Positions 23,361 through 59,867 of a stretch of 64,000 bases of DNA are shown here, in pieces; within the stretch, counting starts at the first letter, position 1; each line of letters starts with the position of its first letter. Below the pieces are notes generated by a model. That model was given only the letters and a program-made list of their open reading frames with translations, was not told where the DNA came from and searched no databases. The stretch covers positions 2,962 to 66,961 of the forward strand of contig JANQIP010000280.1 in the NCBI GenBank assembly GCA_028282095.1, read 5' to 3'. Source of the DNA: Xanthobacteraceae bacterium. Its GTDB lineage: Bacteria > Pseudomonadota > Alphaproteobacteria > Rhizobiales > Xanthobacteraceae. Made by a program: the position numbers and the translations under genes.

Positions 23361-24205
23361 GCCGCGCCCCCATCCGCGTCGACGCGGGCGAGCGTGTTGC
23401 GCAGCTTGCGCCCGAGCGCCGACTGCACCGCGCCGTAGTCGGCGTCCTCGAAAAAGCACCAGCCATTCTTCCAGGTGATTTTGAAAGCGTAGCGGCCGAG
23501 CCCGTCGGCGAGGGTCTCGCCCTCCAGCGGCTTCACCGCGCCGAGCGAGGAAAGGCGCTGCCACTGCGCATCGATCACCGCGCGCTTAAGTGCGGTCGGA
23601 TCGGCGTCTTTGTCGGCCGGCCATCCGACGCCGCCGCGCCTGAGCCAGCTTTTCAGCGCTTCGATCGCGCTATGCGCATCCTCGGGAGCGAGAAACTTGA
23701 CATGACTGACGCCGGTCTGACGCTGCAGGAATGACAGCATCGCGCGGTCGCTGCGGTCGCGCACCAGGCCGAGATCGTAGCCGGCGATCCACAATGCGCG
23801 CAGCTTGCCGCCGACCGGCGTGTCGAGGCCGGCGACCGCTCCTTTCGCCAGCGGAAGGTCTTGCCCCCTCCCGCGTCGCTGCGCTCCGCTCCCTCCCCCG
23901 CACCGAACACGGGTGTTCCCGTGTTCGGCCCAGTTTCGAGTGGCCCAAGTCGGGAACACCCGACTTGGGCTGACGCGGGTGTTCCCGTGTTCGGCACCGT
24001 CTTGAGTCTGCCCCGCCAATTCCTTGAGCGCGTCGATGACGCGCACCGCATCGGCCGCGGTGAGCAGCTTGGTAGACCGCACACCTGCCTGCGAGTCGAG
24101 GAATGCACGATAGGCGTCGTCATCCATGCCGACGCGGTTCTGCAGCGTGCGGATCGCCGTGATCTGCTTGGCGCTCACCATCGGGACGGGCGTGGCCGCG
24201 ATCAT
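23357..24205 (-). CDS. gemA: GemA-like regulatory protein (Mu gp16 / DUF1018) with large REP-like insert
   Basis: KQITAIRTLQNRVGMDDDAYRAFL and KLRALWIAGYDLGLVRDRSDRAMLSFLQRQTGVSHVKFL are the duplicated DUF1018 pattern. The central EHGNTRV...SRVFPTWAT segment is encoded by palindromic units. Confidence 0.75.
   Translation of the reverse strand: MIAATPVPMVSAKQITAIRTLQNRVGMDDDAYRAFLDSQAGVRSTKLLTAADAVRVIDALKELAGQTQDGAEHGNTRVSPSRVFPTWATRNWAEHGNTRVRCGGGSGAQRRGRGQDLPLAKGAVAGLDTPVGGKLRALWIAGYDLGLVRDRSDRAMLSFLQRQTGVSHVKFLAPEDAHSAIEALKSWLRRGGVGWPADKDADPTALKRAVIDAQWQRLSSLGAVKPLEGETLADGLGRYAFKITWKNGWCFFEDADYGAVQSALGRKLRNTLARVDADGGAA
23863..23997. repeat. composite GC-rich palindromic cluster, intragenic (GemA)
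   Basis: Two gccgaacacgggtgttcccgtgttcggc-type units flanking gcccaagtcgggaacacccgacttgggc. Confidence 0.8.
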
Positions 24206-25194: not shown

Positions 25195-25706
25195 GATGCG
25201 GCCTCATCGAGTTCGAACGGTTTGATTTCGAACTCTTCGCCCGCCGATCCGATCGTTATGCCTTGGACGGCCCCGGCGACTTCGGGCTCCTTGAGCATCG
25301 CGTTCTTGTCGAGCTGCTCTTCGAAGCGCGTGGCGATGAATTGGTCGAGCTTGAAGAATTTCAATCGTGCGAGAATGTTCTTGACGGTGTCGCTGAACGT
25401 CACCTTCGCGGGACGACTGCGCCAAGAGACGGTCCCGGTCTCGAATCTCGCGGTCTTGCCCTTACCGCGGGTGAGGCGCTGGCGGTGCTCTGTGCAATAG
25501 GCTTCGAGACGCTCTCGTGAGGTCTTTCTCGCCTCTTCAAGTGGCGCGATTTGCTCGGCAACACGCGCCGCGATGTTCGCGATCCTGTTGTCTCCGTCTG
25601 CCTTGATCTGTGCGATCCGCCGCTCAAGCTTTCCGACGTTGGCGATCGCCGCCGCCGCTTGCTTGTCATTCCGCACATAGGGCGGCGGCTTCGGTCTTTT
25701 CGTCAT
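25191..25706 (-). CDS. gam: Gam-like host nuclease inhibitor (Mu Gam family)
   Basis: AAAAIANVGKLERRIAQIKADGDNRIANI...GKTARFETGTVSWR... is the characteristic Mu Gam pattern. 171 aa. Confidence 0.85.
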   Translation of the reverse strand: MTKRPKPPPYVRNDKQAAAAIANVGKLERRIAQIKADGDNRIANIAARVAEQIAPLEEARKTSRERLEAYCTEHRQRLTRGKGKTARFETGTVSWRSRPAKVTFSDTVKNILARLKFFKLDQFIATRFEEQLDKNAMLKEPEVAGAVQGITIGSAGEEFEIKPFELDEAAS

Positions 25707-26427
25707 CGGTCTCCTCCTCCACCGCGTAACCGAGCGCGGCGAGCGCGCCGGCGAGCGTGTCCGTCAGGGCGCGAGCGCTGTCGGCAAGCGCCGCTGCTTC
25801 TTCCGCCGCGCGCCGCTCGACTCCCTCCCCCGCACCGAACACGGGTGTTCCCGTGTTCGGCCCGACTTGGGCTGGAGGAGGGTTGGGGAGGGGGCGCTGC
25901 GCGCGCTCCATTGCGTCGACGGTGCTGAGCAGCCGGTAGGCGGTGGCGGCGATCTCCTCCAGCGCCAGCACGCGATCGGCCATGGCGACGATGGCGTCGA
26001 CCGATATGCCGAGCGCTTCGCGATTGGGATTGCGCATGATCTTTTCTGCGGCGGCGACGGCATCGGCGTCGCGATAGCGCGCGCCTTCTGTCGTGGCTGC
26101 GAGCGCGATCACGGCCTCGCGCGCCTCCGCCACCCGCGCGGCGAATGCAGGGTCAGCGGCGACCAATCTGTGCCCCGAGTCGAGGCCATGTTTGATTGTG
26201 GAGTGCTCGCGGTTGCCGAGCAGGCGCCCGATCGCACTGGTCGTCAGGGCTGTTTGCTCGCGCGCGAGCAGATAGACGACCCGGCGCGCGTCGACCAATC
26301 GGCCCTCGCGGCGGCCGGACAACAGCACGTGGCGGTCTATGCCCCACTGACTGGCGACCACGCGCACGATCAGCGCGACCGGGACTCGCACCGGCGGCTG
26401 GCGGCTCTCCGCAAGTGCGCCGCTCAT
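25666..26427 (-). CDS. DnaA C-terminal-domain-like HTH protein
   Basis: IVRVVASQWGIDRHVLLSGRREGRLVDARRVVYLLAREQTALTTSAIGRLLGNREHSTIKHGL resembles DnaA domain IV. ATGA overlap with the MuB stop. REP insert in the C-terminal half. Confidence 0.55.
   Translation of the reverse strand: MSGALAESRQPPVRVPVALIVRVVASQWGIDRHVLLSGRREGRLVDARRVVYLLAREQTALTTSAIGRLLGNREHSTIKHGLDSGHRLVAADPAFAARVAEAREAVIALAATTEGARYRDADAVAAAEKIMRNPNREALGISVDAIVAMADRVLALEEIAATAYRLLSTVDAMERAQRPLPNPPPAQVGPNTGTPVFGAGEGVERRAAEEAAALADSARALTDTLAGALAALGYAVEEETDDEKTEAAALCAE
25812..25894. repeat. GC-rich palindromic cluster, intragenic (DnaA-C-like ORF)
   Basis: ccctcccccgcaccgaacacgggtgttcccgtgttcggcccgacttgggc.... Confidence 0.8.
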
Positions 26428-27476
26428 CGCGCGCCCCCATTATGCCGGCGCCCGAGGTCGGGCAGGTCGCCGCCGCGATTCTCCCACGCCGCGCGCACCG
26501 CATCGGCGGTGAGCGGCAGCTCGTCGCCGGCGGCGAGCATCTGCGCCAGGACGAGCGTTTCCCTGATTTGGCCGAGCGCGCCGGGCTTCTTGCCGATCGC
26601 GCGGGCGAGCGCCACCACTTCGGCGTCGACAATCCCCCAGGCCGCGACATAGGTGTCGATGTCGCTCTGCAGCGGTGCCGTCCGATGCAGCCGCATCGAG
26701 AACCGGCGATGGAGCTGCGCGTATCCCGCCTTCGGTTCGTGCCCGCCAAACCGTCCATACAGTTCGTCATTGCCGAGCAGCACGATGCCGACGCTGTACT
26801 CGTCGTGCCAATAGCGGAGTTGGTTGACGGCGCTGTCGACGAGGTTCTGCGCCTCGTCGACGATCAGCAGGCATTGCCGCCCATTGCGCTTGAGGCGCTC
26901 GCCGATCGCTCGGTCCATCCGCGCGGGATTGCGTTCGGTGACATTCAGCGCCGTGCCGATATCGGCCAGCATCGCGCGCGTCGACGCCGTGGTCGGTCGC
27001 ATGGTGCACAGTGTCGTGTGCGGGCGCGTCGCCGCATAGTGACGGGCGGTAGCGGTCTTGCCGAGGCCGGGGCCGAGAACGACAAGCCCCATGCACGGTA
27101 GTGCTTGGGCGTAGGTGAAGAGGTCCACCAGCTCGTCGGCGGTTGGCGTCCTCACAAAATCCGGGATGGCGATATGGATGCGGAAGCGCGCCTGCTCGTC
27201 GAGTGAATCGAGCCAGCGCTCGACGCGCGCCGTCTGGTTTTTGATGACGCCGCCGTACGTCCCGTCATACCAGGGCGAGAATGTGCCGTCCGGGATGCCG
27301 GCGCGGCGCGCAACATCGGCCTTGGACCATCCTTTGCGCTCGGCGACGTCTTGCACCCGCTGGACGGTGCTGCGCCAGCGTTCGAGGTCGGCGGCTCCCA
27401 GACGGTCCGGCTCCTTGCGCGGCGGTGCCCACTCTCCGTTCTTTTTCGGCGCATCGTGATTCTGCACGTCGGTCAT
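26424..27476 (-). CDS. MuB-like AAA+ DNA transposition protein
   Basis: LVVLGPGLGKTATARHYAA (Walker A) and LLIVDEAQNL (Walker B). Directly downstream of the transposase. Confidence 0.85.
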   Translation of the reverse strand: MTDVQNHDAPKKNGEWAPPRKEPDRLGAADLERWRSTVQRVQDVAERKGWSKADVARRAGIPDGTFSPWYDGTYGGVIKNQTARVERWLDSLDEQARFRIHIAIPDFVRTPTADELVDLFTYAQALPCMGLVVLGPGLGKTATARHYAATRPHTTLCTMRPTTASTRAMLADIGTALNVTERNPARMDRAIGERLKRNGRQCLLIVDEAQNLVDSAVNQLRYWHDEYSVGIVLLGNDELYGRFGGHEPKAGYAQLHRRFSMRLHRTAPLQSDIDTYVAAWGIVDAEVVALARAIGKKPGALGQIRETLVLAQMLAAGDELPLTADAVRAAWENRGGDLPDLGRRHNGGAR

Positions 27477-29416
27477 GAGTCCTCCCCCCGCCGGCGGAAC
27501 GGCAGCACGTCGGCGTCACCGTCCTCGATCGCGCGCACGGCGCGCCCGAACGCTTCGGCGCCCGCCCACACCTGTTCGTCTTCCGGCTCGGCTTCGACTG
27601 CGCGCGTGGTGCGCCCGCCGGCGGCGACCAGGCGCACGGCCGCGGGCCGAGGCGGTGGCGCCTGCTCGGGTGGCGGCAGCATGCCGGCGAGATCGTCGAC
27701 CGAGAGCGCGAGCTCGCGGTCGCGCAGCTCGCGCAGCGCGCGCAGATAGTCGTTGCGCTTGCGCGCATGCGCGCGCCCGGCCTCTATGTCCGGGAATCCG
27801 GTACGCTCCAGGCACGGCGCCTCGCACACGAATCTGCCGTCGAGCGAATAGACCGCCACCGGCTCGAACAGCGCCGCGGGGTCGAAACGCACGGTCACGC
27901 GACGGCCGACGAGATCGCCCAGCGCCGCGTGCCAGTAGCGGTTCTGCGCGAGCCAGACCGAGCCGTCGGGTTTGCGGCAGGTGGTGCCGTCGGCGGCCAG
28001 CAGCAGCTCGCGAAGCTGCTCGGGGCTCGCGCGGCGGACCAGCGAACGCTCGTACGACTCCCGGAATGTCTGTTCAAAGCTGCGCCCGCGCGCGGTCGCG
28101 CTGGTGCGCCCCTCGCGCCGGTTATGCCGCGCGATCTGCTCGCCGACATGCGTTTCGAATTCCTCGATCGGAATCGCGCGCTGCCCGTAATTGTCGGGCT
28201 TGTGCTGCGGCGATCGCCCGGTATAGGCGCCGGCACAGGCGGGATGCCGCGCGATGTTTTCGGCGAGGTCGCGGAAGGCGCGTTCAACGGGCTTGGCCTG
28301 TCCGTGATAGGGGGTGACCCAACGGACCTGCACGCCGAGTCGGGTCAGTACGCCTTCGGGCTCCTCGGCGCGCACCTTGAATTTGTAGCGCGTCTTCGAT
28401 CCGCCGCTGATCCACTTGGATGCAAAGGCGCGGCCGTTGTCCATATAGGCGATCTCGGGAATCCCGTAGCTCGTCACCATGTCGGCGAGCGCGAGCCGCA
28501 CCGCGTGCCAGTTCTCTGTGCGATCGAGCCGCCAGCCGACGATCATGCCCGAGTAGACATCCTGGATCGCAAGGAGGGTCGGCCGCTCGACCTTGCCGTC
28601 CGCCATCCGCACGAACACGTCGAGCGTATGCCCGTCGGCATTGACCGCCTGCATCGCGTGGAACACCGAGCGGTCGCGCTGCTGCGCCGGATAGGTGCGT
28701 TTGGCAGCGTCGACGCCCTCGCGCGCCAGCACGCGGGCGGCGCGCGGAATCTCCCGCTCAAGGCGCCGTCGAAGGGTCTTTTGGGACGGTATGGGGCCCC
28801 AGCCCTGTGCCGGCGCTGCTTCCTCGACGAGGCGTCGGTAGCAGGCATCGAATGCCGGCTCCTCGCGTCGTAGGTAGTCGCGGATGAGAAATTGCCAGGC
28901 GCGATCGTCGCATTCCGCCGTCGCCGTCCGTCCGGCATGGCGCGGGGCGAGCGCCGCGAGTCGATGCTCGCGCGCAACGCCCGTCGCGCACCGGTGCCAG
29001 GTCCACACCGTCGATGCGGAGACGCCCGCCTCTCGGGCGGCGAGCGGGACGGCGGCGCGCAGCGGCATCGCCTGGCCGAGCAGCTCGATGCGCTCGATGA
29101 CGGACAAGCGTCGCAGCGCCTCGTCCTTGGCCTTGGCCGGGAGCCGCGCATAGCGGTCCCACTCGGCTTGCGCGCGCACCTGTGCGGGATCGGGCTGCGC
29201 GGCCTGCTGCTGCGCGAGCCAGCGCGCCTGCGTCTCGGCCGGCAGGCGTGAGACGTGGTATTCCCAGCCGCCGCCGCGGCCCTCGCGCTCGCGCGCGCGC
29301 CGGGGATCATCGCGCCAGTCCTCGCGCTCGATGACGAGGGCGAGGCCCTTCTCGCTCGCCGGCAGCGCCGGTGAGCCCAATGCGACGATTTCGGCGACGG
29401 TGAGCCACTCGCGCAT
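27473..29416 (-). CDS. MuA-like DDE transposase
   Basis: 647 aa. N-terminal Mu-type DNA-binding region (MREWLTVAEIVALGSP...). rve-like core (LDVFV...LAIQDVYSGMIVGW...IAYMDNGRAFAS...HGQAKPVERAF). Confidence 0.9.
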   Translation of the reverse strand: MREWLTVAEIVALGSPALPASEKGLALVIEREDWRDDPRRAREREGRGGGWEYHVSRLPAETQARWLAQQQAAQPDPAQVRAQAEWDRYARLPAKAKDEALRRLSVIERIELLGQAMPLRAAVPLAAREAGVSASTVWTWHRCATGVAREHRLAALAPRHAGRTATAECDDRAWQFLIRDYLRREEPAFDACYRRLVEEAAPAQGWGPIPSQKTLRRRLEREIPRAARVLAREGVDAAKRTYPAQQRDRSVFHAMQAVNADGHTLDVFVRMADGKVERPTLLAIQDVYSGMIVGWRLDRTENWHAVRLALADMVTSYGIPEIAYMDNGRAFASKWISGGSKTRYKFKVRAEEPEGVLTRLGVQVRWVTPYHGQAKPVERAFRDLAENIARHPACAGAYTGRSPQHKPDNYGQRAIPIEEFETHVGEQIARHNRREGRTSATARGRSFEQTFRESYERSLVRRASPEQLRELLLAADGTTCRKPDGSVWLAQNRYWHAALGDLVGRRVTVRFDPAALFEPVAVYSLDGRFVCEAPCLERTGFPDIEAGRAHARKRNDYLRALRELRDRELALSVDDLAGMLPPPEQAPPPRPAAVRLVAAGGRTTRAVEAEPEDEQVWAGAEAFGRAVRAIEDGDADVLPFRRRGEDS

Positions 29417-30577: not shown

Positions 30578-30990
30578 GCGCCCCTCCTCTGCTCGCGCGC
30601 GAGCCGCTCGCAGGCGCAATCCTCAAGCCGGACGGCATGGCTGACGGCGCGGTAGGGGTTGGCCGAGAACCGGCCGCAGTCGGGCCAGCTACAGGCCACC
30701 AGGTGCTCGGGCTCAGGCTCGGGCCTCCGGCCGATGAGGCTGCGGAGGGCGGTACCGATCATGCGCGCGCTCCGTCGCAATAGGTGGCCGGGCGGACGGG
30801 GCGAGGGTGGGTTTCCGCCGCCCGGCCGATCCGTCGCGTGGCTGTGGTCGGACCGCGCGACGAACGCCGAGATATCGTTGAGTGTGGTGGCCGGGCGGAC
30901 GGTGCGGGCGCCCGCCCGGCCTGTGCGTAGCGCCGAAGCCTTCGAGCGCGCGACGAACTCAAACAGCTTGCGGAGGGCGGCACCGATCAT
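30574..30990 (-). CDS. hypothetical Cys-containing early protein with internally duplicated start module
   Basis: ATGA overlaps at both ends. MIGAALRKLF... and the internal MIGTALRSLIGRRPEPEPEHLVACSWPDCGRF... The true product may be only the 62-aa distal part (30574..30762). Confidence 0.35.
   Translation of the reverse strand: MIGAALRKLFEFVARSKASALRTGRAGARTVRPATTLNDISAFVARSDHSHATDRPGGGNPPSPRPPGHLLRRSARMIGTALRSLIGRRPEPEPEHLVACSWPDCGRFSANPYRAVSHAVRLEDCACERLAREQRRGA
30786..30827 (-). repeat. GGCCGGGCGG...CCGCCCGGCC hairpin, copy 1 (early operon)
   Basis: Inverted repeat read directly from the sequence. Confidence 0.7.
30889..30921 (-). repeat. GGCCGGGCGG...CCGCCCGGCC hairpin, copy 2
   Basis: ggccgggcggacggtgcgggcgcccgcccggcc. 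Confidence 0.7.
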
Positions 30991-31490
30991 ATGCACCCTC
31001 CATCGAAATAGGTGGCCGGGCGGATGGTCCGCGCATCCGCCCGGCCTGCGCTGCGCGCGGCCGTCGAAGGAAAACCGCACGCAACGGATGGAGGAGGATC
31101 GGCGGCGATGGCGTCGAGGATCGCGGCCTTCGAGGCCGACGACATCCGGTAGCCCTCGCCATAAACGGTCTCGATGGTCGCGCTTGGACAGAGCCTCGCG
31201 ATTCTCTGCCGCAAATAACTGATCTGCGGGGCGACAATCGTCTCTTGCGAGACTGGCTCGGCGTTCCGGGCGCTCGCTACATGCAACGCCGCTTTCTTCA
31301 CCGCCAATGGTGCATGCCGCATCAAGAGCGTGAGCATCCTCTTCTGCGCGCCGGTTAACTGCCACGCGCGCGGGAACGGCTCTGGGACAGGGCGACACAG
31401 CTCGTCGACATGCCGCAGCCGCTCGCGCAGCTCGTCGTTTTCCGCGCGCAGCCGCGCGATTTCGGCCAGCAGTGAGTCGCCCGGCCTCAT
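30987..31490 (-). CDS. OmpR/PhoB-type winged-helix DNA-binding protein
   Basis: LTGAQKRMLTLLMRH...ISYLRQRIARL...IETVYGEGYRM resembles Trans_reg_C. N-terminal coiled coil. ATGA overlap upstream. Confidence 0.55.
   Translation of the reverse strand: MRPGDSLLAEIARLRAENDELRERLRHVDELCRPVPEPFPRAWQLTGAQKRMLTLLMRHAPLAVKKAALHVASARNAEPVSQETIVAPQISYLRQRIARLCPSATIETVYGEGYRMSSASKAAILDAIAADPPPSVACGFPSTAARSAGRADARTIRPATYFDGGCI
31024..31056 (-). repeat. GGCCGGGCGG...CCGCCCGGCC hairpin, copy 3
   Basis: ggccgggcggatggtccgcgcatccgcccggcc, inside the 3' end of the wHTH gene. Confidence 0.7.
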
Positions 31491-32195: not shown

Positions 32196-32531
32196 CTAAA
32201 CCCTCCGTCGCTTTGGACTGGATCGCCGGCGGTGGCCCGCGCATGGTGCGCGCGGCACGGACAGCGAGGGGATGACCGATGGTGCGGACGGCGGATAGCG
32301 CTCCGGCCACAGTTCCGCGGGCGCAACACCGAGGGCGGCGGCGATCGCCGCCTCGCCCGCGTAATGGCGGCGGAGCAGCGCGACCCTGGTGGCCGACGGC
32401 TCAAGGCCTGCGACGCGCGCCACGCCCAGGAGCGTGAGGCCTCGACGGCCAAGCTCGGACTTGATTGCGTGTTTGTCCCACCGGGTTACCGGCGGCGGCG
32501 CATGCCCGGCGGGCGCTGCTGCAGCAACCAT
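32196..32531 (-). CDS. ner: Ner-like (Nlp family) DNA-binding early regulator
   Basis: WDKHAIKSELGRRGLTLLGVARVAGLEPSATRVALLRRHYAGEAAIAAALGVAPAELWPERY matches the Ner/Nlp pattern. First gene of the early operon, divergent from the repressor. Confidence 0.8.
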   Translation of the reverse strand: MVAAAAPAGHAPPPVTRWDKHAIKSELGRRGLTLLGVARVAGLEPSATRVALLRRHYAGEAAIAAALGVAPAELWPERYPPSAPSVIPSLSVPRAPCAGHRRRSSPKRRRV

Positions 32532-32578
32532 TGATAAGCCCTTGACTCCCGGCCATGCCGGCCGGCTTTAGGGAGTCC

Positions 32579-32639
32579 ATAATCACGTATGTGAAGAGGA
32601 ATAATCACTCACGTGAATAATGTCAAGACGATTTATCAC
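32579..32639. promoter_or_regulatory. candidate operator repeats in the repressor/ner divergent control region
   Basis: ATAATCAC at 32579-32586 and 32601-32608; TTTATCAC at 32632-32639. On the minus strand a perfect TTGACA (32621-32626) plus a 17-nt spacer plus TATTCC could be the early promoter, overlapped by the repeats. Confidence 0.45.
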
Positions 32640-32647
32640 ACTCGCGA

Positions 32648-33310
32648 GTGCATGGCGTGGGCCGCAAGCGAAAAGAGATTGATGAAGCGTCGCTAACGCC
32701 ATTTCACCGGCGATTACAATCTATTATGTCAAATCAGACGCAGGCGGAGTTCGCTCGAAAGGCGGGAATATCGCAGGGAGGTCTCCATAGAATTCTTAGC
32801 GGAGGTGAACCAAACCTTGAAACATTAATCGCTCTTGCAAATGCCGGTGGAGTGTCTGTCGGCTGGCTTGCCGCCGATGAAGAGACATCCGCCGTCTCCC
32901 AGGCGGGAGAGATGCTGGTACGGCGTATGGCGTTCCGGGCATCAGCCGGTAGTACCGGCGCACTTGTGCTTCAAGATGAGCCGTCGCCAATTCCTCTTCC
33001 AGCGTCGCTGCTCGCCGAATTGGGATTGAAGCCGGTTACAGCCCGAGCGATGGAGGCGCAGGGCGATTCAATGAAGCCGACAATCGAAGATGGCGATCTG
33101 ATCCTGCTGGACGTTGCCGATCGAGAACTGCGCGATGACAAAATCTACGTGCTGACGATCAGCGACGAGGCCTTTCTCAAACGCCTGCGGCGCGAGCGCG
33201 GGAGATGGATGATGATCTCAGACAACCCGCGGTTTCCACCTGAGCCGATTCCTGCTGCGGAGGTGACGAGGGTCGTTGGCCGCGTCGTATGGGGCGGCAG
33301 GCGGTTGTAA
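32648..33310 (+). CDS. CI/LexA-type prophage repressor (XRE HTH + S24 peptidase domain)
   Basis: TQAEFARKAGISQGGLHRILSG (HTH). GDSMKPTIEDGDLILLD and FLKRL (Ser/Lys dyad pattern). GTG start at 32648, or alternatively ATG at 32726. Confidence 0.85.
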   Translation: MHGVGRKRKEIDEASLTPFHRRLQSIMSNQTQAEFARKAGISQGGLHRILSGGEPNLETLIALANAGGVSVGWLAADEETSAVSQAGEMLVRRMAFRASAGSTGALVLQDEPSPIPLPASLLAELGLKPVTARAMEAQGDSMKPTIEDGDLILLDVADRELRDDKIYVLTISDEAFLKRLRRERGRWMMISDNPRFPPEPIPAAEVTRVVGRVVWGGRRL

Positions 33311-33386
33311 GGGTTTAGCCGAACTGCCGCGCAACAGCTCAGCGAGTACGCTGCCCGCTCCACAACTTTCAAGGGGGAAAAGCGCC

Positions 33387-34502
33387 ATGGCAACGCCGTG
33401 GAGCGTTATGAATAACGAGGACAGGATAAAGGCCATCATCGGGGCGGTCGTAATCCTGCTCTTGGCTGTTTTCTTAATCGCGGGGCTATTGGCAGGAGCG
33501 CAGTCCGAACGCGAGAAGAAGGCGCAGTCACTCGAATTGCAGCAAGCAGTGGCTGCAAACGATCCAGTCCGCTTCGCCAAGGCGCTCGTTCCTGGAGCGG
33601 AGGCGGCGTTCGAGGGCAATCGCAATCCACAGACCGGGCTGATCGACCGGTTCTCGACGCTCACGGTCACATACAGTCTGGATCCGGTGCCGGACAGAAA
33701 CTGGCTTGCGCGAAATGCCTTCTTCCGGCGCGTGAGCGAGATTGTGCCGGCAGTGTTCGAGCGGTTTGACCACATCGAGGTCGTCGCCGTTAAGGGGACG
33801 GCGATGATGGTCGATGTCCGCGGGCACGAACGCCTCGACGAGGTTGCGAGCGTGACGTTCGCGCGCTCAAACTCTCGCGGCGTCAACTGGCCAAACGTGA
33901 AGCCTGAAAATGTCCCGCGGCTCGCGAACAAGCACTACCTGCACCCGCGCTTGGTCAGCGATCTTGCAGCGTCGGACCCGGTGCGCGCGACGTCGCGGAA
34001 GGATAGGCCGCGCCGGGATCGCATTTCCGCGCCAAGACCTGAGGCCGCCGCGGCTGGAGAGCTGGGCGGCGCAGTGGACAAGCTTGCTGATCGCCTCAAC
34101 GCAACATCCAAAAGGACGGGCATTTCATTCTCTATGGCGCTCCAGTCCTGCGAACGCGGCACGACTTGGACCTGCCAGTATCGCATCGGCAACTTCATTA
34201 CCGCGTATGCCCGGTCGACTGATGAGCCGCCCGCCTTGGCCGAGCTTCTGATGCAGTACACTGTCGACCGCACTATGGCCGCTGAAGGAGCAATGGAACT
34301 CCTTTATGCGATTGCCGTCGTGCTGAAGGAGCTTTCGCCGACGGCAACCAAAGAAGAGAACAGCCGGGTCTTGCAGGCTGTGGCCGAAGCTACGAGTAAT
34401 CCGGACCAACAGAGATCAGCCACCGCCGGCCGGGTGCAATATGTCGTAAAGCTCGATCCCGGAAACGGCTTGTGGATTTCGGCGACGTCACTAAGGCGAT
34501 AG
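33387..34502 (+). CDS. membrane-anchored hypothetical protein, co-directional with repressor (lysogeny cargo)
   Basis: Start MATPWSVMNNEDRIKAIIGAVVILLLAVFLIAGLLAGA (N-terminal TM). No domain recognised. Visibly lower GC. Followed by a rho-independent terminator. Confidence 0.55.
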   Translation: MATPWSVMNNEDRIKAIIGAVVILLLAVFLIAGLLAGAQSEREKKAQSLELQQAVAANDPVRFAKALVPGAEAAFEGNRNPQTGLIDRFSTLTVTYSLDPVPDRNWLARNAFFRRVSEIVPAVFERFDHIEVVAVKGTAMMVDVRGHERLDEVASVTFARSNSRGVNWPNVKPENVPRLANKHYLHPRLVSDLAASDPVRATSRKDRPRRDRISAPRPEAAAAGELGGAVDKLADRLNATSKRTGISFSMALQSCERGTTWTCQYRIGNFITAYARSTDEPPALAELLMQYTVDRTMAAEGAMELLYAIAVVLKELSPTATKEENSRVLQAVAEATSNPDQQRSATAGRVQYVVKLDPGNGLWISATSLRR

Positions 34503-34533
34503 CGCTTGCTCACCCCACTTTGAGCTGGTGTCA

Positions 34534-34557
34534 GCCCCGCTTCGGCGGGGTTTTTTG
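34534..34557 (+). terminator. rho-independent terminator after 33387..34502
   Basis: GCCCCGC TTCG GCGGGG followed by TTTTTTGTT. Confidence 0.75.
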
Positions 34558-34620
34558 TTGCGCGCGCGCCGCGCGCTCTACTTCCGCGTATTATTTTTTA
34601 CTTATTTTCTTCTTTTGCCA

Positions 34621-34648
34621 TTGCAGTAATCGTAAGATGTGATATAGT
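34621..34648 (+). promoter_or_regulatory. sigma70-like promoter of the cargo operon
   Basis: TTGCAG (34621-26), 16-nt spacer, TATAGT (34643-48) preceded by TGTGA. AT-rich upstream tract. Confidence 0.45.
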
Positions 34649-34675
34649 CAAATCATCAAAACGGAGGACAAAACG

Positions 34676-34792
34676 ATGAAGACCAAGCAAGCCAAGACAG
34701 TCGAGATCAACAAAGAGTTCTTCGAAAGAAAGAACACCTGGCTGACGGAGCTGCTGGAGAGGGCAAAAAAAGAGAAGGAAAGCAGGGAATAA
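34676..34792 (+). CDS. 38-aa charged helical micro-protein
   Basis: Own translation: MKTKQAKTVEINKEFFERKNTWLTELLERAKKEKESRE*. GGAGGA sits 7 nt upstream of the ATG. Sigma70-like promoter upstream. Too short for the ORF track. Confidence 0.4.
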   Translation: MKTKQAKTVEINKEFFERKNTWLTELLERAKKEKESRE

Positions 34793-34799
34793 AGAGAAG

Positions 34800-34817
34800 G
34801 GGCCCCGAAAGGGGCCC
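34800..34817 (+). other. GC hairpin between micro-ORF and 4-TM gene (attenuator-like, no T tract)
   Basis: GGGCCCC GAAA GGGGCCC, 7-bp stem, 8 nt after the micro-ORF stop. Confidence 0.4.
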
Positions 34818-34881
34818 ACCTATCCTGGACACCTTACCGGCGCTCGGCATCAGGCCGACCGCCACGGCAAAGGAGGCCGTT

Positions 34882-35376
34882 ATGACCACCGCCCACGTTA
34901 TTAAACTGCCGCGTCCGCGTTCCCGCCGCCGCAAGCTGGCCGAGCCGGCGAAGTCGAGCCGCGTGCGCGCCAAGCTGCGCCGTCAGGCCGTTGCCGCCGC
35001 GGCGGTCGCCGCGATCGGCCTGGTGCTCACCGCGCTGAGTCTCTCCCACCTCGCCCATGGCGTCGTCATCGTCACCGGCGTGCCGACCTGGCAGGCCTGG
35101 GCCACGGCGATCGGGTTCGATCTCTCGCTGATCGCGTTGGAGAGCGCCCAGCTCTGCGCATCCACCGAGGCCGTCAGGCGCGCGATCGCCCGCTACGCGC
35201 GGCCCAGCATCCTCGGCACCCTCGCCGGATCGGCGGCGATGAACGCCTTCGCCTTCTGTGAGGCCGTCTCGGGCTGGTGGCTCGCGCCGGCCATCGCCCT
35301 CGGCATCGCTATCCCGACGCTGATCTATGTCCTGACCCGCATTGCGGTCGCCCTATACATCGACTGTCAGCGCTAA
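34882..35376 (+). CDS. four-TM membrane protein with basic N-terminus (lysogeny cargo)
   Basis: AAGGAGG RBS. KLPRPRSRRRK tail, then four hydrophobic helices. Terminator follows. Confidence 0.6.
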   Translation: MTTAHVIKLPRPRSRRRKLAEPAKSSRVRAKLRRQAVAAAAVAAIGLVLTALSLSHLAHGVVIVTGVPTWQAWATAIGFDLSLIALESAQLCASTEAVRRAIARYARPSILGTLAGSAAMNAFAFCEAVSGWWLAPAIALGIAIPTLIYVLTRIAVALYIDCQR

Positions 35377-35402
35377 CGGCCTGCGGTCTGCGAAAATACC
35401 GA

Positions 35403-35427
35403 GGCCGGGCAGACGCCCGGCCTTTCG
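35403..35427 (+). terminator. terminator-like hairpin after 34882..35376
   Basis: GGCCGGGC AGAC GCCCGGCC TTTCG. Confidence 0.55.
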
Positions 35428-35619
35428 TGGCGGCGACGATTCCACTATATTTGTGCGGGTGGGCTAGGCCCAATTCTGCGTTGCGGGTAGCCAATTATCC
35501 CTGTGGCGCACCGTCTGATTGATTCAGCAGCATCATTAGAAGCTGGGCCATTTATCAGCGGTAGTCGGGGTTGGGGGCCCACCACTGGATTGGGAGCGCT
35601 AACCTACCCCTCGCCATAT

Positions 35620-35910
35620 ATGAGCGATCGAGATCACCCGGCCCCGCGGCCGCGAATGCCGCTCGACGAGCTGGTCCGTGCCGCGGAGACAATCTACGGT
35701 GGCGAGTGGCAGACGCCGCTCGCTGCCGATCTCCATGTTGCGCGGCGGACGGTTCAGCGCTGGGCAGCCGGCGATATGCAGCCGCCCGACGTGCGCGTCG
35801 AACTCGCCGATATCTGCCGCCGCCGGGCCGCCGCGCTTACCGAGCTGGCCGACCAGCTCGCCCCCCGCGCCCCCCGCGCCGACCAGGTCGCACGGCGCCA
35901 GCGCCGCTGA
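35620..35910 (+). CDS. small Cro/YdaS-like HTH candidate
   Basis: WQTPLAADLHVARRTVQRWAAGDMQPP looks like an HTH. Start uncertain (GTG 35503 or ATG 35620); weak RBS. Confidence 0.4.
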   Translation: MSDRDHPAPRPRMPLDELVRAAETIYGGEWQTPLAADLHVARRTVQRWAAGDMQPPDVRVELADICRRRAAALTELADQLAPRAPRADQVARRQRR

Positions 35911-36139
35911 CCAGCTCACCCTTGCCGCTGATGCCGGTTCACCATAGAATCACAGACTACTCCCACAGCCTGAAGCCTCACCCTCGGGTGAGGACCCGTT
36001 CCAGACGGTGGCTCAACAAAGAGTCTAGGGCTGCGGGACGCAAAACTTCAGAGTTCCCCGCCCGTCGCCCTCGCCCTCTTTGTCGGCCTATGCCGCTGAC
36101 GTGCCGCTTGTTTTTGCTTTTTGCTCGGCCCGCATCGCA

Positions 36140-36162
36140 AACTCTGAACTGAGTTCAGAGTT
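36140..36162. promoter_or_regulatory. perfect 11-1-11 palindrome AACTCTGAACT G AGTTCAGAGTT (protein-binding site candidate)
   Basis: Read directly from the sequence. A related half-site ACTTCAGAGTTC lies at 36045-36056. Confidence 0.4.
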
Positions 36163-36290
36163 CGGCCCCTTGATTTGGCCGCGGCCGACCACCGCCAGTC
36201 CACCTGTTCGGTCGCGGTCCCGCCCATTTTATCCTTATTTGAAGCGCTTTTGAGGGTCCCCCGAGGCGCTTTGAGGGCTCCTTGAGGCTT

Positions 36291-36346
36291 CCGCCCGTGC
36301 TATAGATTCAAGTGGGCAACAGCCCCGTCCGCTCCGGATTCAAGTG
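36291..36346 (-). other. two 24-bp direct repeats ending in GATTCAAGTG (candidate transposase-binding sites)
   Basis: ccgcccgtgctataGATTCAAGTG (36291-36314) and ccccgtccgctccgGATTCAAGTG (36323-36346), 32-bp phase. The reverse complement CACTTGAA also occurs in the Mu L1 end site as I recall it. Confidence 0.3.
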
Positions 36347-36388
36347 TCTAACCGCCGCCGCCATTTAGACCGCCCCGAGGCCGCAGAA

Positions 36389-36457
36389 ACCGGCCAACCA
36401 CGGGCATTCCCGGCCAATCCCGGAAAATCCCGGCCAATCCCGCCTGGTCCAGTTTCA
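36389..36457 (-). other. three 20-bp-phased direct repeats (CCGGCCAAYCVCGG) followed by a CA dinucleotide (candidate prophage terminus)
   Basis: ccggccaaccacgg (36390), cccggccaatcccgg (36409), cccggccaatcccgc (36429). Then ctggtccagtttCA at 36456-36457, so the phage-strand end would read TGAAACTGG.... Confidence 0.3.
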
Positions 36458-36537
36458 TGTGTCCCGTAACAGCCGCGGTCGCGTCCGGCACGGCAAATGG
36501 TGCGCGCAATCGCGCAATGAGGCAGCCAAGCAACGAT

Positions 36538-36659
36538 CTAGTGATGCGGCACCAACGCTTGGGCTCGTCTCATTGTGTTGGTGCCGCATCACAAAGTAAC
36601 GGATTAGCTAGTGTTCCTTACCTGACGGTCCGGGACCGGACCGTCAGAGAAGGAAACAC
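36538..36659 (+). repeat. family-B structured repeat (about 122 bp: 16-bp-stem hairpin + nested hairpin)
   Basis: GTGATGCGGCACCAAC..(20 nt)..GTTGGTGCCGCATCAC, then AGTGTTCC..TGACGGTCCGG GA CCGGACCGTCA..GGAACACT. Confidence 0.9.
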
Positions 36660-36674
36660 TGGGGACCACAGCCG

Positions 36675-38042
36675 ATGCCAGCGAGCGCCATCGATTCAGC
36701 GATCCTCGGCGGCATGTTCACGACCGAGCCGATGCGGCAGGTCTTCTCGGACGCCAATCGCATCCGCAAGTATCTCGAATTCGAGGCAGCGCTCGCGCGC
36801 GTCGAAGCGCGGCTTGGCATCATACCGCGGGAAGCGGCCGAGGAGATCGCGCGCCATTGCGCGGTCGAGACATTCGACCTCTCAACGCTTGGCGCCGAGA
36901 CCACCGCCATCGGCGCGCCGGTGCAGCCGGTGATCAACCAACTGATGCGGCTGTGCCGCGATGGCCACGGCGAATGGTGCCATTTCGGCGCGACGACCCA
37001 GGACGTCATGGACACCGCGACGATCCTGCAGATCGCCGAAGCGCTGGCGCTGATCGAGGCCGATCTCGCGGCAATCATGGCCGGGCTCGCAGCGCTCGCC
37101 CGCACCCATCGCGACACGGTGATGGCCGGGCGCAGCTATCTGCAGCACGCGGTGCCGATCACCTTCGGCTGCAAATCGGCGTCCTTGCTTGATGCATTTC
37201 TGCGCCACCGCCGGCGGCTCGACGAGATCAAGCCGCGCCTGCTGGTCGGCCAGTTCGGCGGCGCCGCCGGCACGCTCGCATCGCTGGGCGAGCGCGGGCT
37301 CGATGTGCGGGCGGCGTTGATGCGTGAGTTGAATCTCGGCGTGCCGGACATGTCCTGGCACGGCGCGCGCGACCGCATCGCCGAGATCGGCGCATTTCTT
37401 GGCTTACTCACTGCGAGCTGCGCCAAGCTCGCGCTCGATACCAAGCTCTTGATGCAGACCGAGGTCGAGGAGGCGTCCGAGCCGCTGCCACCGGGCCGCG
37501 GCTCGTCGAGCGCGATGCCGCACAAGCGCAATCCGGTCTCTGCGGCCTTGATCGGCGCGGCGGCGCCGCTGGTCCGCCAGCAGGTCGCCGCGTTGCTGGA
37601 GGCGATGGTCGCCGACCACGAGCGTGCCAGCGGCGCCTGGCAGATCGAGTGGATCGCCGTGCCGGACATCTTCTGCCTGACCGCCGGCGTGCTCGCGCAT
37701 ACGCACGCGCTTGCGAGCGAGCTTTCGGTCGATGCCGAACGGATGCGGGCCAATCTCGACATCACGCGTGGGCTGGTGTCGACCGAAGCGGTGGTGACAG
37801 GGCTGGCACCTCATCTTGGCCGCCAGCACGCCCATCGGCTGGTCTCGGCCATCTGCCGGGAGACGGCTGCCACCGGCCGACCGCTCGTCGATCGGCTCGC
37901 CGAGAACGAAGAAATCGCGCGCCACCTCGATCGGCCAGCGCTGACACGGCTCACCGATCCCGCAAATCACCTCGGCGCCGCCGGCGCGATGGTCGACCAT
38001 GTGCTCGCACTCTATGAGGAGGAGCAGCGGAAGTCTCGATAG
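36675..38042 (+). CDS. pcaB: 3-carboxy-cis,cis-muconate cycloisomerase / adenylosuccinate-lyase-family enzyme
   Basis: Fumarate-lyase signature GSSAMPHKRNP. 455 aa. N-terminal FSD..R.....FEAALA pattern of the PcaB-like subgroup. Exact specificity not determinable. Confidence 0.75.
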   Translation: MPASAIDSAILGGMFTTEPMRQVFSDANRIRKYLEFEAALARVEARLGIIPREAAEEIARHCAVETFDLSTLGAETTAIGAPVQPVINQLMRLCRDGHGEWCHFGATTQDVMDTATILQIAEALALIEADLAAIMAGLAALARTHRDTVMAGRSYLQHAVPITFGCKSASLLDAFLRHRRRLDEIKPRLLVGQFGGAAGTLASLGERGLDVRAALMRELNLGVPDMSWHGARDRIAEIGAFLGLLTASCAKLALDTKLLMQTEVEEASEPLPPGRGSSSAMPHKRNPVSAALIGAAAPLVRQQVAALLEAMVADHERASGAWQIEWIAVPDIFCLTAGVLAHTHALASELSVDAERMRANLDITRGLVSTEAVVTGLAPHLGRQHAHRLVSAICRETAATGRPLVDRLAENEEIARHLDRPALTRLTDPANHLGAAGAMVDHVLALYEEEQRKSR

Positions 38043-48890: not shown

Positions 48891-48960
48891 GCCCTTTAGC
48901 TAACACGAGATGCGAACATATAAAGAACAAAAAAGCGTGAGCCGGAATGGTTGACATCCG

Positions 48961-59853: not shown

Positions 59854-59867
59854 TGGCAGGCCCGTTC

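What the first reader, a model, noticed from the sequence alone, without database searches (positions are those of the whole stretch)
33387..35910. Lower-GC cargo cluster on the repressor strand between the prophage repressor and the phage end (candidate superinfection-exclusion or defence module)
Four ORFs lie downstream of, and co-directional with, the S24 repressor. They are opposite to all lytic genes. The first is a 371-aa N-terminally anchored membrane protein with no domain I can recognise, followed by a strong terminator. The second is a 38-aa charged micro-protein with its own sigma70-like promoter (34621-34648) and GGAGGA RBS. A GC hairpin follows it. The third is a 164-aa four-TM protein with a poly-Arg N-terminus. 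The fourth is a small Cro/YdaS-like HTH candidate. The region is visibly AT-richer than the rest of the prophage. The position is analogous to lambda rexA/rexB, where a cytoplasmic or anchored sensor and a 4-TM protein sit next to cI and are expressed in lysogens. That makes an abortive-infection or exclusion function plausible. None of the proteins matches a defence family I know, so it could be undescribed.
Basis: inference. Interest (0 to 1): 0.68.

Follow-up and report, generated by a model that had tools for sequence, protein, structure and literature searches.

The report
Repressor-linked membrane cargo of Mu-like prophage
The stretch between the repressor and the left end of a Mu-like prophage holds several independently exchangeable accessory genes for cell-envelope proteins of unknown families; they are plausible but untested blockers of incoming phages, and they are not a lambda Rex-like pair.

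Summary
The four ORFs are real and lie inside a Mu-like prophage. I mapped its left end at 36471 by comparison with related contigs. They do not form one module.

- **ORF1 (371 aa):** it sits directly behind the S24 repressor in all six lineages that carry it, with no terminator between the two genes. It has a membrane anchor and two domains that most likely face the periplasm. The first domain is conserved. The second is variable and optional. Both belong to uncharacterised families of exported proteins.
- **The repressor-downstream slot:** in related Mu-like viral contigs, 17 of 22 carry an unrelated signal-peptide, lipoprotein or anchored protein at this position. Only 3 of 206 background ORFs have such an N-terminus.
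- **ORF2 (38 aa):** it lies after a strong terminator, behind a separate promoter-like site, and is replaceable.
- **ORF3:** a conserved four-helix membrane protein found alone in other prophages, on a plasmid, and beside recombinases.
- **ORF4:** a small helix-turn-helix protein, only occasionally linked to ORF3.

No protein matches PADLOC, Pfam, PDB, RexA, RexB or SieA. Only ORF1 and ORF2 are low-GC; ORF3 and ORF4 are not. Envelope-level superinfection exclusion is the best guess, but it is inferred from position and predicted topology only. The Rex-like pair model is not supported.

The parts
32648..33310 (+). HTH + peptidase-S24 prophage repressor (context). It is divergent from the ner-like gene at 32196-32531 (-).
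   Evidence: Pfam Peptidase_S24 6.7e-22 and HTH_3 7.4e-10; phrog_4 4.8e-42. Ner-like HTH_35 1.3e-21. Homologues in L009 and L001 support a start near 32648.
33387..34502 (+). ORF1, 371 aa. Layout: N-terminal membrane anchor (aa 17-35), conserved domain (about aa 50-200), Arg/Pro-rich linker, variable C-terminal domain (about aa 226-371) with a Cys-x9-Cys-x-Tyr motif. It starts 76 bp after the repressor stop, with no terminator between.
   Evidence: It has five homologues among 5.8 billion proteins, all directly downstream of an S24 repressor of a Mu-like prophage. Alignment. A profile search finds each domain as stand-alone exported proteins. AlphaFold2 gives pLDDT 80-93 for the N-domain and a poor C-domain.
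34533..34560 (+). Intrinsic terminator ending the repressor-ORF1 transcription unit.
   Evidence: 8-bp stem, 6 of them GC pairs, followed by TTTTTGTT. Conserved in L001 and L005.
34621..34648 (+). Promoter-like site (TTGCAG-N16-TGaTATAGT) in a 41-48% GC spacer.
   Evidence: Read from the sequence. The flank 34531-34658 is 91% identical in L001. It is below the threshold of the consensus scan.
34676..34792 (+). ORF2, a 38-aa charged helical micro-protein. It is a replaceable cassette together with the GC hairpin at 34800-34817.
   Evidence: GGAGGA Shine-Dalgarno sequence; GC by codon position 0.38/0.28/0.72. L001 and L005 carry unrelated 51-aa and 61-aa ORFs at the same place between conserved flanks. 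It is a singleton cluster in the protein collection.
34882..35376 (+). ORF3, 164 aa. It has an Arg-rich N-terminus followed by four long helices, and the family motif LSLSHLAHG. A hairpin follows at 35402-35423.
   Evidence: At least 265 homologues, none with a Pfam domain. AlphaFold2 pLDDT 89.9. Against L001, 41 of 51 nucleotide differences fall at codon position 3. It is found as a lone reverse-strand gene in other prophages, next to IS21 or a resolvase, and on plasmid pRX1.
35620..35910 (+). ORF4, a small helix-turn-helix-like protein. It is 96 aa from ATG 35620, or 84 aa from ATG 35656 as called in the source collection.
   Evidence: phrog_12690 7e-11 and phrog_3626 9.5e-8; Pfam HTH hits are below threshold. 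Orthologue in L001 with 30 of 46 differences at position 3. The 84-aa form is the one on record. ORF4-like genes follow ORF3 homologues in only 3 of 77 other loci.
36238..36471 (+). Conserved Mu-type left end of the prophage, with three direct ATTCAAGTG-like repeats (36306, 36338, 36453) and a terminal ...ACA.
   Evidence: Alignment with the ends of L002, L003, L004 and L009, which stop or diverge at 36471. Repeat positions. A host REP-like element begins at 36540.

Best explanation
**Shown**
- The 3.1 kb between the S24 repressor and the Mu-type left end (36471) is a stack of separately exchangeable accessory units on the repressor strand, not one system.
- Unit 1 is ORF1. Nothing separates it from the repressor gene.
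- Unit 2 lies behind a terminator and a separate promoter-like site. It holds a replaceable micro-ORF (ORF2) and ORF3, a conserved four-helix protein that travels alone among prophages, plasmids and recombinase-linked elements of Hyphomicrobiales.
- ORF4 is a small HTH protein, only occasionally linked to ORF3.

**Inferred: ORF1 topology and expression**
- ORF1 is probably co-transcribed with the repressor.
- ORF1 is a bitopic inner-membrane protein. Its conserved N-domain and its variable, optional C-domain both face the periplasm.
- It fills a slot that, in Mu-like phages with S24 repressors, almost always holds some exported, lipoprotein or anchored protein.
- ORF3 sits in the inner membrane (inferred from the predicted helices and hydrophobicity).

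**Inferred: function**
- These units are expressed in the lysogen.
- ORF1 acts at the envelope to stop superinfecting phages, probably at genome entry. It would work like the exported Ltp/Sie2009-type exclusion proteins encoded in lysogeny modules. Its variable C-domain would set target specificity.
- ORF3 acts independently as an inner-membrane exclusion or defence factor comparable in kind to P22 SieA.
For: **Context**
- The prophage has MuA, MuB, Gam and Ner genes.
- The end at 36471 was mapped against four independent contigs.

**ORF1**
- All six lineages place it 73-97 bp after the repressor stop.
- No terminator precedes it, and a strong one follows.
- Comparing the window with L001 shows a mosaic. 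The repressor is 50% identical at the protein level, the ORF1 N-domain 94%, the ORF1 C-domain 30%, ORF2 unrelated and ORF3 95%.
- The C-domain is absent in two lineages.

**Extracytoplasmic location of ORF1's domains**
- 52 of 54 N-domain relatives and 22 of 31 C-domain relatives have a hydrophobic segment N-terminal to the domain.
- Some relatives have a zinc-ribbon or SHOCT module before the TM helix.
- 34 of 35 C-domain proteins keep a Cys-x(5-13)-Cys-x-aromatic motif, and most have exactly two Cys.

**The repressor-downstream slot**
- 17 of 22 non-redundant Mu-like viral contigs carry an ORF with an N-terminal signal or anchor directly after the repressor. The background is 3 of 206 early-operon ORFs.
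- These proteins are mostly unrelated to one another and include lipoboxes.
- One (L033) is a stand-alone member of the ORF1 C-domain family.

**ORF3**
- It has at least 265 homologues under purifying selection.
- It occurs as a lone reverse-strand gene in the head region of a Rhodoplanes Mu-like prophage and in the tail region of another prophage.
- It also occurs next to IS21, next to serine recombinases and RHH genes, and on plasmid pRX1 beside a MobQ relaxase.

**Precedents**
- Ltp is a lipoprotein encoded in the lysogeny module that blocks DNA injection (PMC3952083).
- P22 SieA is a 164-aa inner-membrane protein, encoded on the reverse strand, that blocks injection (PMC10883804).
- In the transposable phage Fc02, the lysogen transcript covers the repressor and a downstream accessory gene (PMC9936078).
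Against: - There is no functional or expression data of any kind.
- No sequence or fold similarity to any known exclusion or defence protein was found. This covers PADLOC, Pfam and NCBIfam, PDB sequence profiles and Foldseek against PDB and BFVD.
- The best PDB fold hit for ORF1 is a T6SS immunity protein at E 0.066, which is not significant.
- Position next to a repressor plus export is compatible with many other lysogenic-conversion roles.
- The close ORF1 family is tiny: six lineages, and none in IMG/VR, the JGI contigs, or the phage or plasmid collections.
- ORF1's topology rests on homologues and motifs, not on experiment.
- The flanking charges around ORF1's TM helix are uninformative (my count from the sequence).
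Confidence: 0.42

Rival explanations
1. Lysogenic-conversion genes unrelated to phage exclusion. ORF1 and ORF3 would be envelope proteins that change host physiology, for example surface properties, stress tolerance, or interactions with other cells or with conjugative elements. They would benefit the lysogen or the carrying element without blocking phages.
For: - The positional and topological evidence is the same as for the best explanation.
- ORF3 is also carried by a plasmid and by IS/recombinase-linked elements, not only by phages.
- No similarity to any defence family was found.
Against: - The extreme diversity of the proteins filling the repressor-downstream slot fits an arms race better than a housekeeping benefit.
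- So does the domain-level mosaicism of ORF1: N-domain 94% identical and C-domain 30% identical between two phages.
- The characterised occupants of comparable positions that I checked are exclusion proteins.
Confidence: 0.27
2. A lambda RexA/RexB-like two-component abortive-infection system. ORF1 would sense infection and activate the four-helix ORF3 as a membrane channel.
For: - There is a superficial likeness. A larger protein and a four-helix membrane protein of about 160 aa lie downstream of, and co-directional with, an S24 repressor.
- ORF1, a small ORF and ORF3 occur together in 3 of 6 ORF1 lineages.
Against: - A terminator and a separate promoter lie between the two genes.
- ORF1 occurs without ORF3 in L002/L003, L004 and L009.
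- ORF3 occurs without ORF1 in about 90 loci.
- ORF1's domains are inferred to be periplasmic.
- hhalign probabilities are 0.1% against RexA and 0.3% against RexB.
Confidence: 0.04
3. ORF3-ORF4, perhaps with ORF2, is a selfish maintenance or regulatory cassette. A membrane-active toxin or effector would be controlled by an adjacent small HTH or peptide partner. It would stabilise the carrying element rather than defend against phages.
For: - ORF3 is often followed by some small HTH protein, either ORF4-like or unrelated, or preceded by a divergent RHH protein.
- It lies beside VapBC on pRX1.
- ORF3 spreads among unrelated mobile elements.
Against: - The partners are inconsistent. ORF4-like genes follow ORF3 in only 3 of 77 loci.
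- In the Rhodoplanes prophage, ORF3 stands alone.
- ORF3 is strongly conserved, with buried polar residues (His56, His59, Asp80, Glu87, Asn121). That pattern is not typical of simple pore-forming toxins.
Confidence: 0.12
4. The genes serve the phage's own life cycle, for example control of induction, lysis timing, or release or adsorption of progeny. They would then not be dispensable cargo.
For: - ORF1's N-domain is highly conserved and is always tied to the repressor.
Against: - ORF2, ORF3 and ORF4 are missing from three related phage lineages whose ends are otherwise conserved.
- Most related Mu-like phages carry unrelated proteins in the ORF1 slot.
- The orientation is opposite to all lytic genes.
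Confidence: 0.08

Closest known systems
Ltp (Streptococcus phage TP-J34) and Sie2009-type lactococcal superinfection-exclusion proteins
   Same: [quoted passage not shown]
- The product is tethered to the outer face of the cytoplasmic membrane by an N-terminal lipid or anchor, where it blocks DNA injection (PMC3952083).
- ORF1 shares the position, the N-terminal anchor and the inferred outward-facing domains.
   Different: - No sequence or fold similarity was found.
- The host here is Gram-negative and the phage is a transposable Mu-like one.
- ORF1 has two domains, with an optional and highly variable second domain.
- Function is untested.
P22 SieA
   Same: - SieA is a 164-aa inner-membrane protein.
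- Its gene is on the reverse strand in the late region and has its own promoter.
- It is expressed from the prophage, and SieA alone is sufficient to block DNA injection (PMC10883804).
- ORF3 is 164 aa with four predicted helices.
- In other prophages, ORF3 sits as a lone reverse-strand gene among head or tail genes.
   Different: - hhalign probability is 0.2%.
- ORF3 is also carried by a plasmid and by IS/recombinase-linked elements.
- No phenotype is known for ORF3.
Lambda RexA/RexB
   Same: - The accessory genes are co-directional with and downstream of the S24 repressor.
- One product is a four-helix membrane protein of about 150 aa.
   Different: - There is no homology.
- The genes are not one operon.
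- They are not co-inherited.
- ORF1 is inferred to be exported, whereas RexA is cytoplasmic (my own knowledge).
Accessory genes flanking the repressor of Pseudomonas B3-like transposable phages (Fc02 olg1 and e4; Ps56 genes 9 and 10)
   Same: - These are transposable phages with a repressor divergent from ner.
- The lysogen transcript covers the repressor plus neighbouring accessory ORFs.
- Some of those ORFs exclude superinfecting phages.
- e4, downstream of the repressor, is variably present (PMC9936078).
- Regions of genomic plasticity in Mu-like phages are described as morons (PMC4378225).
   Different: - I did not compare these Pseudomonas proteins with the window's proteins, so their relatedness is untested.
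- e4 has no assigned function.
- The excluding genes lie upstream of the repressor or in the early operon, not downstream of the repressor.

Membership tests
Mu-like transposable prophage (context) | DDE transposase MuA, MuB ATPase, Ner and Gam, with the repressor divergent from the early operon | tested here: met
   Pfam DDE_2 2.4e-49, HTH_Tnp_Mu_2, Mu-transpos_C, Phage-MuB_C 1.6e-17, Phage_Mu_Gam 2.4e-31 and HTH_35 1.3e-21.
Mu-like transposable prophage (context) | A defined end that terminates in CA, with repeated subterminal sites, beyond which relatives have unrelated flanks | tested here: met
   Alignment A1 shows conservation up to ...ACA at 36471, after which the sequences diverge or the contig ends. 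Three direct ATTCAAGTG-like repeats lie within 160 bp. The right end lies outside the window, so a target-site duplication could not be checked.
Lambda Rex (RexA + RexB) | Sequence or profile homology of the membrane partner to RexB and of the other partner to RexA | tested here: not met
   hhalign of the ORF3 family against RexB gives probability 0.3%. The ORF1 family against RexA gives 0.1%.
Lambda Rex (RexA + RexB) | Two genes in one operon with the repressor, inherited together | tested here: not met
   A terminator at 34533-34552 and a separate promoter-like site lie between ORF1 and ORF3. ORF1 occurs without ORF3 in 3 of 6 lineages. ORF3 occurs without ORF1 in about 90 loci.
P22 SieA family | Homology to one of the SieA sequence types | tested here: not met
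   hhalign of the ORF3 family against P22 SieA gives probability 0.2%. Only one SieA type was tested.
P22 SieA family | A polytopic inner-membrane protein that is expressed from the prophage and blocks DNA injection | not testable with these tools
   Four predicted helices and moron-like placement are compatible. Localisation and phenotype need experiments.
Ltp/Sie2009-type exported exclusion proteins | Gene in the lysogeny module next to the repressor, on the repressor strand | tested here: met
   ORF1 starts 76 bp after the repressor stop. The arrangement is the same in all six lineages.
Ltp/Sie2009-type exported exclusion proteins | N-terminal lipobox, signal peptide or anchor, with the functional domain outside the cytoplasmic membrane | tested here: inconclusive
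   A single N-terminal TM helix is present. Outward orientation is inferred from homologues with signal peptides, from zinc-ribbon or SHOCT modules preceding the TM helix, and from a conserved Cys pair. There is no experimental topology.
Ltp/Sie2009-type exported exclusion proteins | Sequence or fold relationship to Ltp or Sie2009 | tested here: inconclusive
   Pfam, PHROGs and NCBIfam returned no family with an exclusion annotation, and Foldseek against PDB and BFVD returned only non-significant or uncharacterised matches. No direct comparison with an Ltp or Sie2009 sequence was run.
Known anti-phage defence systems (PADLOC-DB v2) | Any protein of the cluster matches a defence-system model | tested here: not met
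   ORF1, ORF2, ORF3 and ORF4 gave no hit at E up to 1.
Cro/CI/YdaS-type HTH (ORF4) | A match to an HTH family above its curated threshold | tested here: inconclusive
   Phage_CI_repr scores E 0.029 (15.2 bits; cut-off 22). HTH_3 scores 0.19. phrog_12690 (7e-11) and phrog_3626 (9.5e-8) have no assigned function.

The most novel reading that the evidence does not exclude
Mu-like phages with S24 repressors keep a dedicated 'exported-protein slot' immediately downstream of the repressor. The slot is filled by rapidly exchanged periplasmic, lipoprotein or anchored proteins that act as superinfection-exclusion factors. ORF1 would be a modular two-domain member: a conserved scaffold domain plus a swappable specificity domain with a disulfide loop. 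Separately, the ORF3 family (LSLSHLAHG motif, at least 265 members) would be an undescribed inner-membrane exclusion or defence protein shared by prophages, plasmids and transposable elements of soil Hyphomicrobiales.
Probability: 0.28. Interest if true: 0.6.

Novelty: new variant of a known kind. Interest (0 to 1): 0.4.

Why it matters
If ORF1 and ORF3 do exclude phages, they would add at least three protein families with no current annotation to the list of envelope-level exclusion factors: the ORF1 N-domain, the ORF1 C-domain and the ORF3 family.

They would also give a simple positional rule for finding more. In Mu-like phages, the gene right after the S24 repressor usually has a signal peptide or anchor (17 of 22 loci).

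The domain swapping in ORF1 would offer a natural experiment on how target specificity evolves.

If they do not exclude phages, this is ordinary prophage cargo of unknown function.

Tried and rejected
**Searches that found no informative match**
- Rfam, with permissive E-values, over 32400-36700 returned only the terminator as a chance RsmY fragment.
- Foldseek of the ORF3 model against PDB was not significant.
- Foldseek of the ORF1 model against PDB was not significant. Against BFVD it matched one uncharacterised siphovirus protein at 2e-7.
- Profile searches of PDB sequences with the ORF1 N-domain and ORF3 alignments found nothing.
- A Pfam scan of all 115 ORF3-family members gave only scattered sub-threshold hits.
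- Pfam on ten stand-alone relatives of the ORF1 domains found no domain family. PHROGs returned only unknown-function families: phrog_8263, phrog_25008 and phrog_23546.
- tblastn of ORF1 and ORF3 against the phage collection found no match. ORF1 against plasmids also found no match.
- ORF4 against phages gave weak hits to unannotated or hypothetical ORFs.
- Scans of IMG/VR and the JGI metagenome contigs for ORF1 relatives found none.

**Approaches that failed or gave little**
- A joint alignment of ORF1 with relatives of both domains misaligned the C-domain proteins, so I discarded it.
- The N-domain alignment was too diverse for a pattern scan.
- The third homologue search hit its candidate cap and added only six proteins.
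- I could not map the prophage's other end. The window starts inside the prophage, and no inverted match to the left end was found.

**Ideas considered and dropped**
- I considered that the 75-bp element at 35458-35532 is a structured RNA. The fold z-score is -0.87 and there is no covariation.
- I considered an antisense ORF over ORF4 (35599-35919, -). It has no family hits, and substitutions against L001 concentrate at position 3 of the + frame.
- ORF3 resembles Pfam DUF2637 from my memory of that family. No Pfam hit supports this, so it is only a lead.

Full report
**Setting**

The window's first ~36.5 kb is a high-GC (66-71%) Mu-like prophage. A MuA-type DDE transposase lies at 27473-29416 and a MuB-type ATPase at 26424-27476. 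Gam lies at 25191-25706, and a Ner-like winged-helix protein lies at 32196-32531. All of these are on the - strand, as are the remaining long ORFs with coding-type GC3. The HTH plus peptidase-S24 repressor (32648-33310, +) diverges from ner.

The window begins inside the prophage, so only the repressor-side end can be studied.

**Where the phage ends**

This decides whether the four ORFs are phage cargo at all. Homologues of ORF1 led to nine Logan contigs. The last ~150-230 bp of four of them (L002, L003, L004, L009) align with window 36238-36471.

They then stop, or continue with unrelated sequence, exactly after ...GTTTCATGTGTCC(N)5ACA. In the window this is ...GTAACA|GCCGCGG at 36471. Three direct ATTCAAGTG-like repeats sit at 36306, 36338 and 36453. 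I read these as transposase-binding sites; that is inference.

A host REP-like repeat starts at 36540 and recurs at four other places in the host part of the window. A fumarate-lyase-like host gene follows at 36675. So 33311-36471 is the left arm of the prophage, and the finding lies inside it.

**The observation**

The four ORFs, the terminator, the Shine-Dalgarno sequence, the hairpins and the hydrophobic segments are all as described.

Two corrections are needed.
- Low GC applies to the repressor (58%), ORF1 (61%) and the ORF2 region (41-48%). It does not apply to ORF3 (70%) or ORF4 (74%).
- ORF4's start is uncertain. It is either 35620, whose MSDR codons are conserved in L001, or 35656, which is the 84-aa form on record.

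All four frames look coding.
- Against the L001 orthologues, ORF3 has 41 of 51 nucleotide differences at codon position 3 and only 8 amino-acid changes.
- ORF4 has 30 of 46 differences at position 3.
- The ORF1 N-terminal half has 18 of 28 at position 3.
- ORF2 has no orthologue. Its GC by codon position (0.38/0.28/0.72) and its GGAGGA favour translation.

**ORF1**

Only five homologues exist among 5.8 billion clustered proteins. Every one lies 73-97 bp downstream of, and co-directional with, the S24 repressor of a Mu-like prophage that has ner on the other side. No terminator is predicted between the repressor and ORF1, and a canonical one follows ORF1. Co-transcription with the repressor is therefore likely, though it is inferred.

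The alignment shows a membrane helix, a strongly conserved domain (about residues 50-200, with dozens of invariant positions) and an Arg/Pro-rich linker. A C-terminal domain follows that is poorly conserved, and it is missing altogether in two lineages of 216 and 209 aa.

I ran a full HMMER search of 1.84 billion representative proteins with this profile. It found 228 proteins at E below 1e-3. These match either the N-domain or the C-domain, never both, and are typically 150-250 aa. So ORF1 is a fusion of two domains that otherwise live as separate small proteins.

The two domain families have these properties.
- 52 of 54 N-domain relatives have a hydrophobic segment in front of the domain. 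So do 22 of 31 C-domain relatives.
- Several relatives place a zinc ribbon or a SHOCT module before the membrane helix.
- 34 of 35 C-domain proteins keep a Cys-x(5-13)-Cys-x-aromatic motif, and most have exactly two cysteines. In the window the motif is CERGTTWTCQY.

From this I infer that both ORF1 domains face the periplasm.

Neither domain has a Pfam family. PHROGs links them only to families of unknown function. AlphaFold2 gives a confident alpha/beta N-domain (pLDDT 80-93) and a poor C-domain. Foldseek finds nothing significant in the PDB. In BFVD it finds one uncharacterised siphovirus protein.

**A general slot behind the repressor**

I scanned IMG/VR with an alignment of the six repressors and obtained 80 loci. 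Among those that also carry Ner, MuA or MuB relatives and have at least 400 bp after the repressor, there are 23 non-redundant loci.
- 22 have an ORF of at least 90 aa starting within 250 bp of the repressor stop.
- 17 of those ORFs begin with a hydrophobic signal or anchor segment.
- By comparison, only 3 of 206 ORFs on the early-operon strand do so.

The proteins are mostly unrelated to one another. They include classical signal peptides and lipoboxes such as LNGC and LAGC. One (L033/L034) is a stand-alone member of the ORF1 C-domain family, at E 3e-13. L041 and L050 look similar to that family by eye.

ORF1 is thus one occupant of a position that, in this phage group, is regularly given to an exported protein. 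The hydrophobicity test is crude and should be repeated with a proper predictor.

**ORF2, ORF3 and ORF4**

After the terminator comes an AT-rich spacer with a promoter-like TTGCAG-N16-TGaTATAGT. This flank (34531-34658) is 91% identical in L001.

The segment that follows holds ORF2 and its hairpin. In L001 it is replaced by an unrelated 51-aa ORF, and in L005-L008 by a 61-aa ORF. Similarity resumes at ORF3. The L005-L008 contigs break off inside the start of an ORF3 homologue. So the order ORF1, small ORF, ORF3 occurs in three of six lineages.

The other three lineages (L002/L003, L004, L009) go from ORF1 to the phage end in about 500 bp and lack ORF2, ORF3 and ORF4.

ORF3 belongs to a family of at least 265 proteins of about 160 aa, with no Pfam domain. 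The family has the near-invariant motif LSLSHLAHG. It also has conserved polar residues in the helices: His56, His59, Asp80, Glu87 and Asn121. The model shows four long helices with pLDDT 89.9 and has no structural neighbour in the PDB.

Its genomic contexts are varied.
- It is a lone reverse-strand gene between head genes of a Rhodoplanes Mu-like prophage.
- It is a reverse-strand gene among tail genes of another prophage.
- It lies next to an IS21-type transposase pair and a resolvase.
- It lies on Methylocapsa plasmid pRX1, between VapBC and a MobQ relaxase.
- In soil metagenome contigs, its recurrent neighbours are a divergent RHH protein (11 loci), serine recombinases (7 loci) and assorted small HTH proteins.

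An ORF4-like gene follows ORF3 in only 3 of 77 loci with enough downstream sequence, in addition to the window and L001. ORF3 is therefore an independently mobile single-gene unit, and ORF4 is an occasional companion.

**Testing the Rex analogy and other memberships**

I fetched lambda rexA and rexB and P22 sieA and compared them by profile.
- ORF3 family against RexB: probability 0.3%.
- ORF3 family against SieA: probability 0.2%.
- ORF1 family against RexA: probability 0.1%.

PADLOC gives no hit for any of the four proteins. Add the terminator between ORF1 and ORF3, their separate inheritance and the inferred periplasmic location of ORF1's domains. Together, these leave the sensor-plus-channel pair model unsupported.

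**What it most likely does**

Shown:
- the placement on the repressor strand inside the prophage;
- the unit structure;
- the mosaicism between two phages (repressor 50% identical, ORF1 N-domain 94%, ORF1 C-domain 30%, ORF2 unrelated, ORF3 95%);
- the variable presence of the units;
- the family distributions.

Inferred:
- expression in the lysogen;
- the outward topology of ORF1, and the membrane location of both proteins (from predicted helices and hydrophobicity);
- the function.

The closest functional precedents are these.
- Exported exclusion proteins encoded in lysogeny modules. Ltp is a lipoprotein on the outer face of the membrane that blocks DNA injection (PMC3952083).
- P22 SieA, a 164-aa inner-membrane protein encoded on the reverse strand, which alone blocks the ejection-protein conduit (PMC10883804).
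- The B3-like transposable phage Fc02. Its lysogen transcript spans the repressor and neighbouring accessory genes, some with exclusion activity (PMC9936078).

I therefore favour envelope-level superinfection exclusion, with ORF1's variable C-domain setting specificity and ORF3 acting on its own. My confidence is about 0.4, because nothing here tests function. The main rival is a lysogenic-conversion role unrelated to phages.

**Verdict**

The proteins are new families in a familiar kind of genomic niche. The interest is moderate. It lies mainly in the repressor-downstream exported-protein slot and in the widespread ORF3 family.

Noticed in passing
window 35458-35532; L001 9852-9925: A 75-bp element is 89% identical between the two prophages but sits upstream of ORF4 in the window and downstream of ORF4 in L001. 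In both it is preceded by a -10-like TATATT/TAGAAT. At the window position corresponding to L001's (35922-35950), a promoter-like TTGCCG-N17-TAGAAT is conserved, but the sequence after it differs. It may be a mobile leader or regulatory element.
   Followed up: partly
window 36140-36162 (partial third copy at about 36045-36057): A perfect palindrome, AACTCTGAAC-TGA-GTTCAGAGTT, lies about 310 bp inside the phage left end, with a further half-site upstream. It could be a protein-binding site, for example for the repressor, a host factor or the transposase enhancer.
   Followed up: no
window 36540-36615; also 46186-46245, 48951-48999, 49068-49186, 59736-59854: A host REP-like inverted-repeat element (76-119 nt, 86-96% complementary between copies) recurs in the host part of the window. 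The prophage end lies only about 70 bp from one copy.
   Followed up: no
window 10596-10648, 13288-13354, 18103-18154, 23862-23930, 24855-24902, 25803-25882: GC-rich repeats of the type CCCTCCCCCGCTTGCGGGGGAGGG are scattered through the prophage, apparently between genes.
   Followed up: no
L010 8861-10330 (Rhodoplanes sp. TEM Mu-like prophage): The Mu F-like head protein next to the ORF3 homologue carries an ADP-ribosyltransferase toxin domain (Phage_Mu_F + ADPrib_exo_Tox). This suggests an injected effector fused to a virion protein.
   Followed up: no
window 24202-25194 (-), 25666-26427 (-), 30987-31490 (-): The early operon encodes three unusual DNA-binding proteins. One has a LexA-type DNA-binding domain fused to zinc ribbons. 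One has a DnaA C-terminal HTH. One has an OmpR-type Trans_reg_C winged helix.
   Followed up: no
L163 and L167 (metagenome contig Ga0209062_1000182, positions about 27.7 kb and 90 kb): Two ORF3 homologues with the same match length and identity (55%) to ORF3 lie 62 kb apart on one 235-kb contig. One genome can therefore carry several copies, which fits ORF3 riding on repeated mobile elements.
   Followed up: no
L031-L110 (IMG/VR loci with related S24 repressors): In many of these contigs the repressor lies 0-1.6 kb from the contig end. This is consistent with complete Mu-like genomes whose assemblies stop at the transposon end. It offers a simple way to map ends in this phage group.
   Followed up: partly
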